DNA of 64,000 nucleotides from assembly GCF_054482525.1 (NCBI RefSeq), contig NZ_CM137006.1, one strand, 5' to 3'. Below, one piece after another: positions 4,993 to 6,066 of this stretch (the first letter of the stretch is position 1; every line of letters begins with the position of its first letter). Made by a program: the position numbers and the translations under genes. The notes under the pieces were generated by a model. It did not search any database. It worked only from the letters and a program-made list of their open reading frames with translations, and was not told the origin of the DNA.

Positions 4993-6066
4993 ATGACAGA
5001 GAAAAGAAGAACCCGCTGGCAGCGGCGGCCAGGCACGACGGGCGGCAAATTACCGTGGAATGACTGGCGCAATGCCACGACCTGGCGTAAAGCGACGCAA
5101 TTATTACTGTTGGCAATGAATATTTATATTGCCATCACGTTCTGGTATTGGGTGCGCTATTACGAAACGGCAGGTAGTACGACATTTGTCGCCAGGCCAG
5201 GGGGCATCGAAGGCTGGCTACCGATTGCCGGTCTGATGAATCTGAAATATAGCCTTGCAACAGGTCAGTTACCGTCCGTCCACGCCGCCGCGATGCTGTT
5301 ATTGGTCGCTTTTATCGTCATCAGTCTATTACTAAAAAAGGCCTTTTGTTCATGGTTATGCCCGGTTGGTACGCTTTCTGAATTAATCGGCGATCTCGGT
5401 AGCAAACTGTTTGGTCGGCAATGTGTCCTTCCCCGCTGGCTGGATATTCCTCTGCGCGGCGTGAAGTATTTGCTGTTGAGTTTTTTTCTCTATATTGCGT
5501 TATTGATGCCCGCTCAGGCGATTCACTATTTTATGTTGTCGCCCTACAGCGTGGTGATGGACGTTAAAATGCTCGATTTCTTTCGTCATATGGGGACCGC
5601 GACATTAATCAGCGTGACCGTTTTGCTGATTGCCAGCCTGTTTATTCGCCATACCTGGTGTCGTTATCTTTGCCCATATGGCGCGCTGATGGGCGTGGTT
5701 TCGCTATTATCACCGTTTAAGATTCGTCGCAATGCCGAAAGTTGTATCGACTGTGGCAAATGCGCAAAAAATTGCCCATCACGGATCCCGGTCGATAAAT
5801 TAATTCAGGTACGAAGCGTGGAATGTACCGGTTGTATGAGTTGCGTAGAGTCATGTCCGGTAGCCTCAACATTGACCTTTTCACTGCAAAAACCTGCGGC
5901 AAATAAAAAAGCCTTTGCGTTGTCTGGCTGGTTAATGACGCTACTGGTTCTGGGGATTATGTTTGCGGTGATTGGTTACGCAATGTATGCGGGAGTATGG
6001 CAAAGCCCGGTGCCGGAGGAATTGTACCGACGCTTAATTCCGCAAGCGCCAATGATTGGTCACTAA
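4993..6066 (+). CDS. yccM: YccM, polytopic membrane protein with two 4Fe-4S ferredoxin-type cysteine motifs (NapH/MauN-like)
   Basis: 357-aa ORF; motifs CIDCGKCAKNCP and CTGCMSCVESCP plus several hydrophobic segments; position next to torS as in K-12. Confidence 0.9.
   Translation: MTEKRRTRWQRRPGTTGGKLPWNDWRNATTWRKATQLLLLAMNIYIAITFWYWVRYYETAGSTTFVARPGGIEGWLPIAGLMNLKYSLATGQLPSVHAAAMLLLVAFIVISLLLKKAFCSWLCPVGTLSELIGDLGSKLFGRQCVLPRWLDIPLRGVKYLLLSFFLYIALLMPAQAIHYFMLSPYSVVMDVKMLDFFRHMGTATLISVTVLLIASLFIRHTWCRYLCPYGALMGVVSLLSPFKIRRNAESCIDCGKCAKNCPSRIPVDKLIQVRSVECTGCMSCVESCPVASTLTFSLQKPAANKKAFALSGWLMTLLVLGIMFAVIGYAMYAGVWQSPVPEELYRRLIPQAPMIGH

What the first reader, a model, noticed from the sequence alone, without database searches (positions are those of the whole stretch)
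4993..6066. yccM: uncharacterised polyferredoxin-like membrane protein sitting directly beside the TMAO two-component system
YccM carries two 4Fe-4S-type cysteine clusters (CIDCGKCAKNCP, CTGCMSCVESCP) in a polytopic membrane protein, reminiscent of NapH/MauN-type quinol-oxidising electron-transfer proteins. It is transcribed in the same direction as torS with only 71 bp between them. Its function is, as far as I know, undefined; the adjacency raises the untested possibility of a redox-linked role connected to tor or hya respiration.
Basis: inference. Interest (0 to 1): 0.3.

Follow-up and report, generated by a model that had tools for sequence, protein, structure and literature searches.

The report
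yccM: nitric-oxide-linked membrane iron-sulfur protein
The gene is real and already catalogued in E. coli with no known function; sitting next to the TMAO sensor gene is an accident of one lineage, while its conserved control sites and its relatives' neighbours point to a role in coping with nitric oxide and nitrite.

Summary
Window 4993-6066 (+) encodes the 357-aa YccM, with both CxxCxxCxxxCP motifs, 71 bp after torS on the same strand. The region is 100% identical to E. coli PCN033, and the gene is present in 5416 of 5426 complete E. coli genomes.

The tor/hya interpretation is not supported.
- torS adjacency occurs only in Escherichia. Several Citrobacter species and Intestinirhabdus have cbpM directly upstream instead, and one Escherichia lineage lost tor but kept yccM.
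- The 71-bp spacer holds the published NsrR (nitric-oxide repressor) operator at 4953-4975, overlapping a -10-like TAGAAT.
- This operator is conserved upstream of yccM in at least six enterobacterial genera with unrelated neighbours.

YccM is a five-helix membrane protein. Two CX3CP motifs and a 2x[4Fe-4S] domain face the cytoplasm. It scores below the curated cut-offs for NapH, NosR and CcoG, so it belongs to a distinct, uncharacterised branch of that superfamily.

Relatives in Bacteroidota, Ignavibacteriota and Acidobacteriota lie beside Rrf2 regulators, RIC/YtfE and other hemerythrin proteins, nrfHA, qNOR and NirK.

Best reading: an NsrR-controlled membrane electron-transfer protein of the nitrosative-stress and nitrite network. 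Its partner is unknown; YtfE is a testable candidate. The gene is already known, and interest is moderate.

The parts
4993..6066 (+). yccM coding sequence (357 aa), a membrane polyferredoxin
   Evidence: ORF; Pfam 2x Fer4_5 plus Fer4 dicluster; RefSeq annotation of the identical PCN033 region; AlphaFold pLDDT 94.4.
4922..4992 (+). 71-bp torS-yccM spacer, which carries yccM's own regulatory sites
   Evidence: Sequence. No terminator predicted and no significant RNA structure (z=-0.19). The NsrR ChIP-seq summit lies 36 bp upstream of the yccM start in CFT073 (PMC5320621).
4953..4975 (+). NsrR operator, an 11-1-11 inverted repeat: TAGTGGCATTTGGTATGCAACTT
   Evidence: Exact match to the published motif, one hit in 64 kb and none in shuffles. 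A weight matrix built without the yccM site scores it 17.6. Equivalent palindromes lie upstream of yccM in Citrobacter, Providencia, Intestinirhabdus, Enterobacillus, Pectobacterium and Budviciaceae.
4948..4953 (+). Putative -10 hexamer TAGAAT, overlapped by the NsrR operator (inferred)
   Evidence: It is one of only three blocks conserved in the 13-sequence, 5-genus upstream alignment, as TAGAAT/TAGCAT/TACAAT. The consensus promoter scan did not call it. No transcription start data were seen.
4913..4926 (+). Conserved upstream box GCGATTTGAATCAA, FNR-like (8/10 to TTGAT-N4-ATCAA); a hypothesis only
   Evidence: G, A and AATCAA are invariant across 5 genera. Its centre lies 28.5 bp upstream of the -10-like hexamer, which is Class II-like geometry. 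It matches the pattern with 2 mismatches. yccM mRNA is about 3-fold higher anaerobically (PMC3688515 Table S12), but yccM is absent from that paper's FNR ChIP and FNR-dependent tables.
5347..5364 (+). First CX3CP motif (C119-S-W-L-C123-P124), on the cytoplasmic side after TM2
   Evidence: C119, C123 and G126 are invariant in 78 family members down to 29% identity. Topology.
5659..5676 (+). Second CX3CP motif (C223-R-Y-L-C227-P228), on the cytoplasmic side after TM4
   Evidence: C223, R224, C227, P228 and G230 are invariant.
5743..5778 (+). First [4Fe-4S] motif, CIDCGKCAKNCP (residues 251-262)
5824..5859 (+). Second [4Fe-4S] motif, CTGCMSCVESCP (residues 278-289)
5917..6063 (+). Fifth transmembrane helix (residues 309-330) plus periplasmic C-terminal tail with conserved W336 and terminal His357
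   Evidence: Hydropathy; AlphaFold helices 312-332 and 342-354; W336 is 96% and H357 76% conserved across the family. The NapH profile ends before this region.
6081..6108 (.). Strong hairpin between the convergent genes yccM and gnsA, a probable transcript end
   Evidence: 12-bp stem; the region folds at -26.4 kcal/mol, z=-7.7, and 0 of 200 shuffles fold as well. The terminator scan did not call it because no T-run follows directly.

Best explanation
yccM is a stand-alone gene with its own promoter in the 71-bp spacer after torS. That promoter is gated by the nitric-oxide-sensing repressor NsrR, whose operator overlaps the -10 region and the probable start site. A conserved FNR-like box may add anaerobic input.

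The product is a five-helix inner-membrane protein with its N-terminus inside and its C-terminus outside. Two CX3CP cysteine motifs and a 2x[4Fe-4S] ferredoxin domain face the cytoplasm. A conserved polar patch faces the periplasm.

It belongs to an uncharacterised branch of the NapH/NosR/CcoG superfamily. By analogy with those proteins, I infer that it moves electrons between the quinone pool (or a cytoplasmic donor) and a partner that handles nitric oxide or nitrite, as part of the nitrosative-stress response.

Shown: the gene, its motifs, its predicted topology, the operator sequence and its conservation, in-vivo NsrR binding (literature), the non-conserved tor linkage, and the NO/nitrite gene neighbourhoods of relatives. 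Inferred: the promoter elements, the direction and source of electron flow, and the partner.
For: 1. Regulation.
- NsrR binds this spacer in vivo in CFT073 by ChIP-seq and in K-12 by ChIP-chip (PMC5320621). The exact 23-bp motif is at 4953-4975.
- A weight matrix built without the yccM site finds matching palindromes upstream of yccM in Escherichia, Citrobacter, Providencia, Intestinirhabdus, Enterobacillus, Pectobacterium/Samsonia and Pragia/Budvicia/Limnobaculum, although their flanking genes differ.
- The 48 yccM upstream windows have a median best score of 17.1, against 1.8 for 512 other upstream windows in the same loci. 83% exceed the control 95th percentile.

2. Independence from tor.

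3. Family and anatomy.

4. Neighbourhoods of full-length relatives (41-53% identical, same NCBIfam score profile).
- yccM-like, nrfH and nrfA have overlapping reading frames in three distinct Bacteroidota-type contigs.
- NirK, a NirV-like gene, SCO1 and RIC lie next to it in an Ignavibacteriales contig.
- In 25 Acidobacteriota loci, RIC/YtfE occurs in 6, qNOR in 3 and Crp/Fnr regulators in 9.
- In 80 metagenome loci, the commonest families among 226 genes within two positions are Hemerythrin (20), Rrf2 (8) and ScdA_N (6).
- By tblastn on the same 80 loci, Rrf2 lies directly upstream on the same strand in 12, RIC occurs in 11, NrfH in 7 and qNOR in 4.

5. Phenotypes and expression.
- The Keio yccM deletion has growth defects with an NO donor (31%), paraquat (80%), H2O2 and Cu+H2O2 (PMC11673782).
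- It is heat-sensitive, and this is complemented by plasmid-borne yccM (PMC5828445).
- yccM mRNA is about 3-fold higher anaerobically (PMC3688515 Table S12).
Against: - No biochemical data on YccM exist in the literature I could reach.
- NsrR enrichment at yccM is weak (2.24-fold). yccM is not among the NsrR targets that responded to nitrate in the CFT073 RNA-seq, so regulation, as opposed to binding, is not shown.
- Gene neighbourhood shows shared context, not a physical partner. Only about a third of the metagenome loci carry a recognisable NO/nitrite gene (28 of 80).
- In Enterobacterales and Burkholderiales the gene stands alone.
- The Keio phenotypes are broad (heat, blue light, oxidants) and shared with many envelope and energy mutants.
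- The FNR-like box has no support from K-12 FNR ChIP-seq.
- In the Citrobacter freundii group the best NsrR-like palindrome sits on the upstream box, not on the -10 region.
- Co-transcription with torS cannot be excluded.
Confidence: 0.55

Rival explanations
1. YccM is a CcoG-type cupric reductase. It would bind Cu(II) at the cytoplasm-facing CX3CP motifs and reduce it to Cu(I) through the two [4Fe-4S] clusters, feeding CopA-type efflux or copper chaperones.
For: - A review names YccM as a CcoG homologue that lacks the Ig-like domain, and CcoG is a demonstrated Cu(II) reductase (PMC7558416).
- YccM has the same predicted five-helix layout, with one helix after the Fe-S domain.
- Some relatives sit beside copper enzymes or chaperones: NirK with SCO1 in L097, nosZ in L101.
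- The yccM deletion is very sensitive to CuCl2+H2O2 (97% growth defect).
Against: - The CcoG model scores only 34.1 bits against a cut-off of 316.7 and covers residues 98-233 only. NapH (94.9) and NosR (75.7) score higher.
- CX3CP motifs are shared by NapH, NosR and RdhC, which are not known copper reductases (PMC5928378).
- The commonest neighbours (Rrf2, hemerythrin/RIC, NrfHA) are not copper proteins.
- Many other mutants in the same screen also show about 97% Cu+H2O2 defects.
- No CueR or CusR link was seen.
Confidence: 0.15
2. YccM is an accessory electron-transfer subunit of TMAO (Tor) or hydrogenase-1 (Hya) respiration, co-transcribed with torS.
For: - Same strand, 71 bp apart, with no predicted terminator between torS and yccM.
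- torS, torT and yccM all show about 2-3-fold higher anaerobic mRNA (PMC3688515 Table S12).
Against: - The adjacency is restricted to Escherichia. cbpM-yccM is the arrangement in Citrobacter and Intestinirhabdus, and one Escherichia lineage deleted tor but kept yccM and its NsrR box.
- There are no TorR boxes near yccM.
- None of the roughly 170 other loci examined has tor or hya genes near a YccM relative.
- hya is about 5.6 kb and nine genes away, on the other strand.
- cbpA, cbpM and cspG show the same mild anaerobic shift, so that shift is regional rather than specific to tor.
Confidence: 0.03
3. YccM is a general housekeeping or stress membrane redox protein (for example for envelope or oxidative-stress tolerance). 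On this view NsrR binding is incidental, weak and non-regulatory.
For: - The deletion phenotypes are broad: critical high temperature, blue light, paraquat and H2O2.
- NsrR enrichment is only 2.24-fold and no nitrate response was seen in RNA-seq. The authors note that some NsrR sites do not regulate.
- The gene is monocistronic with unrelated neighbours in Enterobacterales.
Against: - An incidental site would not stay conserved upstream of the gene in six or more genera whose other non-coding sequence is unalignable.
- In other phyla the gene is physically linked to Rrf2 regulators and to NO/nitrite genes.
Confidence: 0.15
4. YccM belongs to the sulfur-relay (Tus) pathway for tRNA thiolation, as labelled in one thermotolerance screen.
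For: PMC5828445 lists yccM under 'sulfur relay system, tRNA modification'. The deletion shares heat sensitivity with tus mutants.
Against: - The paper gives no experiment for that label.
- YccM has no DsrC/TusE-like or sulfurtransferase domain, only Fer4_5 and ferredoxin families.
- No tus genes were seen near any relative.
- The label is probably a confusion with yccK (tusE). This last point rests on my own knowledge and was not checked here.
Confidence: 0.02

Closest known systems
NapH (quinol dehydrogenase ferredoxin subunit of periplasmic nitrate reductase; NapH/MauN family, TIGR02163 / NF007013)
   Same: - It is the best-scoring curated family, aligned over YccM residues 30-299.
- It shares the membrane module of four helices with two CX3CP motifs and a cytoplasmic 2x[4Fe-4S] domain (PMC5928378).
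- It also serves N-oxide metabolism.
   Different: - YccM scores 94.9 and 93.7 bits against cut-offs of 213 and 234.
- YccM adds a fifth helix and a conserved periplasmic tail.
- YccM has no napG or napA neighbours, and E. coli has a separate napH (b2204 in PMC3688515 Table S12).
NosR / NirI (membrane flavo-Fe-S proteins needed for nitrous oxide and cd1 nitrite reductase)
   Same: - It shares the CX3CP membrane module and the C-terminal cytoplasmic polyferredoxin.
- It is an accessory protein encoded next to an N-oxide reductase, as YccM-like genes are next to nrfHA, NirK or qNOR.
   Different: YccM has no N-terminal periplasmic FMN-binding domain and is about half the length. It scores 75.7 bits against a cut-off of 1000.
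CcoG / FixG / RdxA (cupric reductase for cbb3 oxidase assembly; TIGR02745)
   Same: Five-helix layout with one helix after the Fe-S domain, two CX3CP motifs and two [4Fe-4S] clusters. A review names YccM as a homologue (PMC7558416).
   Different: - YccM scores 34.1 bits against a cut-off of 316.7, and only residues 98-233 align.
- YccM has no Ig-like periplasmic domain.
- There is no ccoGHIS or cbb3 context.
NsrR regulon of E. coli (hmp, ytfE, hcp-hcr, ygbA, yeaR-yoaG, nrfA and others)
   Same: yccM has an 11-1-11 NsrR operator in its promoter region and in-vivo NsrR occupancy (PMC5320621). Relatives co-localise with RIC/YtfE, NrfA and Rrf2 regulators.
   Different: Occupancy is weak. NO- or NsrR-dependent expression of yccM was not documented in the sources I could read, and no role in NO metabolism has been tested.

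Membership tests
NapH/MauN family (TIGR02163; NF007013 NapH) | Score at or above the curated family cut-off | tested here: not met
   94.9 bits against 213.05, and 93.7 against 234. Relatives from other phyla give the same profile, 84-91 bits.
NapH/MauN family (TIGR02163; NF007013 NapH) | Two CX3CP motifs plus two CxxCxxCxxxCP [4Fe-4S] motifs | tested here: met
   C119/C123-P, C223/C227-P, C251-C261-P and C278-C288-P. All are invariant or nearly so in 78 sequences.
NapH/MauN family (TIGR02163; NF007013 NapH) | Four-helix protein that ends with the cytoplasmic Fe-S domain | tested here: not met
   YccM has a fifth helix (309-330) and a conserved periplasmic tail after the Fe-S domain. The NapH profile (286 positions) ends at YccM residue 299. 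The four-helix description of NapH comes from PMC5928378.
NapH/MauN family (TIGR02163; NF007013 NapH) | Encoded with napG/napA (or the mau cluster) | tested here: not met
   The neighbours here are torS and gnsA. No Nap-type families appear among the commonest neighbour families of 80 metagenome loci.
NosR/NirI | N-terminal periplasmic FMN-binding domain and a score above cut-off | tested here: not met
   No FMN-binding family hit. The protein starts with a 35-residue basic cytoplasmic segment. It scores 75.7 bits against 1000.
CcoG/FixG/RdxA cupric reductase | Score above cut-off, C-terminal Ig-like periplasmic domain, and ccoGHIS context | tested here: not met
   34.1 bits against 316.7. The tail after TM5 is only about 27 residues. 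A review states that YccM lacks the Ig-like domain (PMC7558416). There are no cco genes nearby.
CcoG/FixG/RdxA cupric reductase | Cu(II) reductase activity | not testable with these tools
   This needs biochemistry. No report on YccM was found.
NsrR regulon | NsrR operator (11-1-11 inverted repeat) in the promoter region | tested here: met
   Exact published motif at 4953-4975; matrix score 17.6; conserved across genera.
NsrR regulon | In-vivo NsrR binding | not testable with these tools
   From the literature only: a ChIP-seq peak in CFT073 with its summit 36 bp upstream of the start and 2.24-fold enrichment, also reported by K-12 ChIP-chip (PMC5320621).
NsrR regulon | Derepression by NO or in an nsrR mutant | tested here: inconclusive
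   yccM is not among the 19 NsrR targets that changed with nitrate in the CFT073 RNA-seq. The key K-12 papers (Filenko 2007, Partridge 2009) are not held.
Tor (TMAO) system | Conserved linkage with tor genes or TorR operators | tested here: not met
   torS adjacency occurs only in four Escherichia loci. cbpM-yccM occurs elsewhere, and a tor-deleted Escherichia keeps yccM. TorR boxes occur only at 320-382.

The most novel reading that the evidence does not exclude
The YccM subfamily may be the missing membrane-bound reductant for the di-iron RIC/YtfE proteins, and more broadly for NO/nitrite-handling enzymes. On this reading YccM would take electrons from the quinone pool or a cytoplasmic donor and pass them through its cytoplasmic [4Fe-4S] clusters and CX3CP cysteines to YtfE, whose physiological reductant is unknown and is thought 'likely to be a ferredoxin' (PMC9052748). 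The supporting observations are that hemerythrin/RIC genes are the commonest neighbours of YccM-like genes, that Rrf2 regulators are often directly upstream, and that E. coli yccM and ytfE both carry NsrR operators.
Probability: 0.25. Interest if true: 0.65.

Novelty: already known. Interest (0 to 1): 0.35.

Why it matters
yccM is one of the remaining function-unknown genes of E. coli, and it is present in almost every strain.

If the reading here is right, the NapH/NosR/CcoG superfamily has a further widespread branch: 333 cluster representatives at E<=1e-30. That branch would be dedicated to nitric oxide and nitrite stress.

E. coli would then have an unrecognised membrane component in its NsrR response. 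This bears on two open questions:
- what reduces YtfE in vivo (PMC9052748);
- what accounts for NO handling beyond Hmp, NorVW and NrfA (PMC5320621).

For genome reading, the case is also a caution. A 71-bp same-strand spacing did not signal a functional link here.

Tried and rejected
- A first AlphaFold run on a 15-sequence alignment gave pLDDT 47 and was discarded. A 78-sequence alignment fixed this.
- I could not read Filenko 2007, Partridge 2009 or Marckmann 2019, which are not held. The supplement of PMC5320621 does not mention yccM.
- I considered YccM as the source of the unidentified membrane-associated, NO-inducible anaerobic NO-scavenging activity of CFT073. yccM was not among the 26 genes tested. 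However, that activity is not constitutive in an nsrR mutant and becomes constitutive in an fnr mutant. This fits an NsrR-repressed, possibly FNR-activated gene poorly, so I do not favour it.
- The FNR-like box is kept only as a hypothesis. It is conserved, but there is no FNR ChIP peak or FNR dependence for yccM in K-12. Two-mismatch matches to the FNR consensus are common in the window: 58, against 33 expected.
- Neighbour clustering in Enterobacterales found only within-genus synteny and no conserved partner.
- The other papers that mention yccM (the gnsA plasmid clone, antisense RNA editing, a gene list) say nothing about its function.
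Full report
**What is there**

Window 4993-6066 (+) is a 357-codon ORF.

The window is E. coli chromosome. Positions 4400-6700 are 100% identical to strain PCN033. The region is present in 5416 of 5426 complete E. coli genomes. RefSeq calls the gene 'yccM: 4Fe-4S binding protein'.

The annotated order is:
- cbpA, cbpM
- torD, torA, torC (-)
- torR (+), torT (-), torS (+, window 2177-4921), yccM (+)
- gnsA, ymcE, ymcF, cspG (-)
- cspH (+)
- appA, cbdX, appB, appC, then hyaF to hyaB (all -)

The torS stop is at 4919-4921, so the spacer is 71 bp. hya is nine genes and about 5.6 kb away, on the other strand.

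**Anatomy**

Pfam finds two Fer4_5 stretches (E=3e-22) and 4Fe-4S dicluster families.

Hydropathy gives five membrane segments: 36-54, 96-114, 159-177, 200-218 and 309-330. There are 10 Lys/Arg in the first 35 residues, and Lys/Arg are also enriched in the loops 115-158 and 219-308. The positive-inside rule therefore puts the N-terminus inside. Both CX3CP motifs (C119-x3-C123-P and C223-x3-C227-P) and both ferredoxin motifs also fall on the inside. The last 27 residues are periplasmic.

An AlphaFold model built on 78 diverse relatives is confident (pLDDT 94.4, pTM 0.91) and has helices at the same places.

Across those 78 sequences, which go down to 29% identity, the four CX3CP cysteines and seven of the eight ferredoxin cysteines are invariant; the eighth is 98% conserved. 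So are P77, G126, R224, P228 and G230. A set of periplasm-side polar residues is also conserved: R68, E73, H97, D190, K192, W336 and the terminal H357.

**Family placement**

| Curated model | Score (bits) | Cut-off (bits) |
|---|---|---|
| NapH/MauN subfamily | 94.9 | 213 |
| NapH equivalog | 93.7 | 234 |
| NosR | 75.7 | 1000 |
| CcoG | 34.1 (residues 98-233 only) | 316.7 |

No curated model is passed.

Relatives from Bacteroidota, Ignavibacteriota and Acidobacteriota give the same score profile. They share the fifth helix and W336. YccM therefore represents a distinct, uncharacterised branch of the NapH/NosR/CcoG/RdhC superfamily. A whole-library search finds 8169 cluster representatives at E<=1e-3 and 333 at E<=1e-30.

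The literature describes the shared module as four helices plus two CX3CP motifs, proposed to oxidise quinol in NapH. The function of the CX3CP motifs themselves is unresolved (PMC5928378; PMC8238504). A review names YccM as a CcoG homologue without the Ig-like domain, and CcoG is a Cu(II) reductase (PMC7558416).

**Is the tor adjacency meaningful?**

Orthologues at 62-77% identity occur in Citrobacter, Providencia, Pectobacterium, Samsonia, Pragia, Budvicia, Limnobaculum, Leminorella, Intestinirhabdus, Enterobacillus and others. Relatives at about 55% identity occur in Burkholderiales MAGs and at about 50% in Acidobacteriota. No Salmonella, Klebsiella or Enterobacter locus appears among the best 80 species-level hits.

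torS lies upstream of yccM only in four Escherichia loci. In six Citrobacter species loci, C. koseri and Intestinirhabdus, cbpM is directly upstream of yccM. In C. amalonaticus a four-gene nucleoside-type cassette sits between them.

In Escherichia sp. E1V33 only a torD remnant separates cbpM from yccM. That lineage still has the NsrR box. The tor cluster is therefore an insertion/deletion between cbpM and yccM.

In Providencia, Pragia and a gammaproteobacterial metagenome contig, the gene stands alone among unrelated genes. TorR-box decamers occur three times at 320-382, in the torC-torR spacer, and not near yccM.

No terminator or stable structure lies in the 71-bp spacer, so some read-through from torS remains possible. 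A strong hairpin follows yccM at 6081-6108 (z=-7.7).

**What controls it**

PMC5320621 reports an NsrR ChIP-seq peak whose summit is 36 bp upstream of the yccM start in CFT073. Enrichment is 2.24-fold. The site is an 11-1-11 inverted repeat, TAGTGGCATTTGGTATGCAACTT, and was also found by ChIP-chip in K-12. That exact sequence is at window 4953-4975.

I built a half-site weight matrix from 16 other sites in that paper and scanned upstream of every orthologue. Palindromes of the same type are present in:
- Escherichia, at -40
- the C. amalonaticus, C. koseri and C. sedlakii group, Intestinirhabdus and Enterobacillus, at -41/-42
- Providencia, at -38/-39, with scores of about 23, better than E. 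coli's own site
- Pectobacterium and Samsonia
- Pragia, Budvicia and Limnobaculum

None occurs in Burkholderiales or Acidobacteriota.

As a control, the best scores in 512 upstream windows of other genes in the same loci have a median of 1.8 and a 95th percentile of 11.3. The 48 yccM windows have a median of 17.1, and 83% exceed that 95th percentile. The loci are not independent, but at least six lineages with different flanking genes are involved.

In an alignment of 13 upstream regions from five genera, only three blocks are conserved:
- GAT-N4-ATCAA (window 4913-4926)
- a -10-like TAGAAT (4948-4953)
- the NsrR box

The first block matches the FNR consensus at 8-9 of 10 positions. It is centred 28.5 bp upstream of the -10-like hexamer, which is the geometry of a Class II activator site.

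I hold this as a hypothesis only. yccM mRNA is about 3-fold higher anaerobically (PMC3688515 Table S12). The values there run aerobic over anaerobic, since cyo and sdh are high. However, yccM is absent from that paper's FNR ChIP and FNR-dependent tables. In the C. freundii group the best NsrR-like palindrome overlaps this upstream box rather than the -10 region.

**What relatives sit next to**

In Bacteroidota-type contigs, three proteins that are 63-68% identical to one another (the one compared directly, P0124, is 46% identical to E. coli YccM over residues 29-357) are each the first gene of a yccM-like, nrfH, nrfA string with overlapping reading frames. An Rrf2 regulator is nearby in two of these.

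An Ignavibacteriales relative lies beside NirK (with a cytochrome c domain), a NirV-like FGE-sulfatase protein, SCO1 and a RIC/YtfE protein.

In 25 Acidobacteriota loci:

| Neighbour | Loci |
|---|---|
| RIC/YtfE (ScdA_N + hemerythrin) | 6 |
| Quinol NO reductase (qNOR) | 3 |
| Crp/Fnr regulators | 9 |
| Hemerythrin | 4 |
| Radical SAM protein | 4 |

A Providencia MAG has a RIC gene convergent with yccM.

A metagenome scan seeded on the Bacteroidota clade returned 80 loci at 41-65% identity. Among 226 genes within two positions of the YccM-like gene, the commonest Pfam families are Hemerythrin (20), Rrf2 (8), ScdA_N (6) and the NrfH family (4).

By tblastn on the same 80 loci:

| Neighbour | Loci |
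|---|---|
| Rrf2 regulator | 13 (12 directly upstream on the same strand) |
| RIC | 11 (mostly immediately adjacent) |
| NrfH | 7 |
| NrfA | 5 |
| qNOR | 4 |
| Crp/Fnr | 9 |

In all, 28 of the 80 loci, and 18 of the 42 that are at least 6 kb long, carry at least one of RIC, hemerythrin, Rrf2, NrfHA, NirK or qNOR. Each of these families is typically present in only a handful of copies per genome (general knowledge, not measured here), so this is a strong, though not formally modelled, enrichment.

The common denominator of NsrR/Rrf2, RIC, NrfA, NirK and qNOR is nitric oxide and nitrite.

**Phenotypes**

- The Keio yccM deletion is heat-sensitive at the critical high temperature and is complemented by plasmid-borne yccM (PMC5828445).
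- It is hypersensitive to blue light (PMC10782963).
- It shows growth defects with paraquat (80%), H2O2 (63%, noisy), the NO donor nitroprusside (31%) and CuCl2+H2O2 (97%) (PMC11673782).

These phenotypes are broad and only weakly diagnostic. The 'sulfur relay' label in PMC5828445 has no supporting evidence, and YccM has no such domain.

**Most likely mechanism**

I conclude that yccM is an independent gene whose promoter NsrR occupies. It encodes a membrane electron-transfer protein of the nitrosative-stress and nitrite network (confidence about 0.55).

- Shown: the sequence features, the predicted topology, the operator and its conservation, the non-conserved tor linkage, and the neighbourhoods.
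- From the literature: in-vivo NsrR binding.
- Inferred: the promoter elements, electron flow from the quinone pool or a cytoplasmic donor through the Fe-S clusters and CX3CP cysteines, and the partner.

The most interesting partner candidate is YtfE/RIC. Its physiological reductant is unknown and 'likely to be a ferredoxin' (PMC9052748), and RIC/hemerythrin genes are the commonest neighbours of YccM-like genes. I give that about 0.25. An NrfA-linked, NosR-like accessory role is a variant of the same idea.

The CcoG-type cupric reductase reading (0.15) is not excluded. The tor/hya reading (0.03) is not supported.

I do not favour YccM as the unidentified membrane NO-scavenging activity of CFT073. 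That activity behaves oppositely in nsrR and fnr mutants, although yccM was not among the genes tested.

**Novelty and score**

The gene, its domains, its NsrR site and its family resemblance are already in databases and papers, so the finding as written is already known. New here, as far as the searchable literature shows (no paper combines NsrR with polyferredoxin), are three points:
- the adjacency to tor is accidental;
- the NsrR operator is phylogenetically conserved;
- the subfamily is embedded in NO/nitrite gene clusters in several phyla.

That makes an open question testable, hence moderate interest (0.35).

Noticed in passing
window 7180-8720: cspH (7180-7392, +) runs straight into the 3' end of appA (7380-8720, -). 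RefSeq annotation of the identical PCN033 region also goes from cspH directly to appA. As I recall the K-12 map, the gfc/etp/etk capsule block lies between these genes there, so it appears to be absent in this strain.
   Followed up: no
L010 2017-3090, and the equivalent position in L011: In E. coli E69 and E. whittamii, tblastn finds no torT or torR upstream of torS. In E. coli E69 (L010) a phage-type integrase ORF (357 aa) lies directly upstream of torS. This suggests a prophage or island inserted next to torS.
   Followed up: partly
L012 4988-6001: In Escherichia sp. E1V33, cbpM is followed by a 282-bp torD remnant and then yccM. The rest of the tor cluster is gone, but the NsrR box upstream of yccM is intact.
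   Followed up: yes
L007 7627-7875; L008 7581-7832; L009 1302-1553: In Burkholderiales MAGs, a YecH-family metal-binding protein (TIGR03853, 106.7 bits) lies directly upstream of the YccM-like gene, between parB and the atp operon. E. coli yecH is about 7-fold higher anaerobically (ratio 0.136) in PMC3688515 Table S12.
   Followed up: partly
L097 5044-5886; L099 4988-5830; L101 4951-5793: A 280-aa protein with ferredoxin motifs plus the AF_0155 domain (PF27217) is transcribed divergently from the YccM-like gene in three Bacteroidota/Ignavibacteriota contexts. It may be a cytoplasmic partner. No E. coli counterpart was looked for.
   Followed up: no
L074, L076, L077 (for example L077 6361-8244): In Acidobacteriota, a hemerythrin protein (about 180 aa) and a radical SAM protein (about 420 aa) form a conserved pair beside the YccM-like gene. 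A 445-aa membrane protein with no Pfam hit lies between qNOR or Crp and RIC in several loci.
   Followed up: partly
window 60147-60156: An exact copy of the TorR-box decamer CTGTTCATAT lies far from the tor genes. It is probably chance, since 3.5 one-mismatch hits are expected in the window.
   Followed up: no
window 4993-6066, minus strand: PMC13170351 reports a TadA-dependent A-to-I editing event in an antisense transcript called 'yccM-as'. A 61-aa minus-strand ORF at 5717-5902 is listed mechanically, but nothing suggests it is a gene.
   Followed up: no
window 320-382: Three exact TorR-box decamers lie on the minus strand in the torC-torR spacer. These match what I know as the torC operator region and served as a positive control for the search.
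   Followed up: yes
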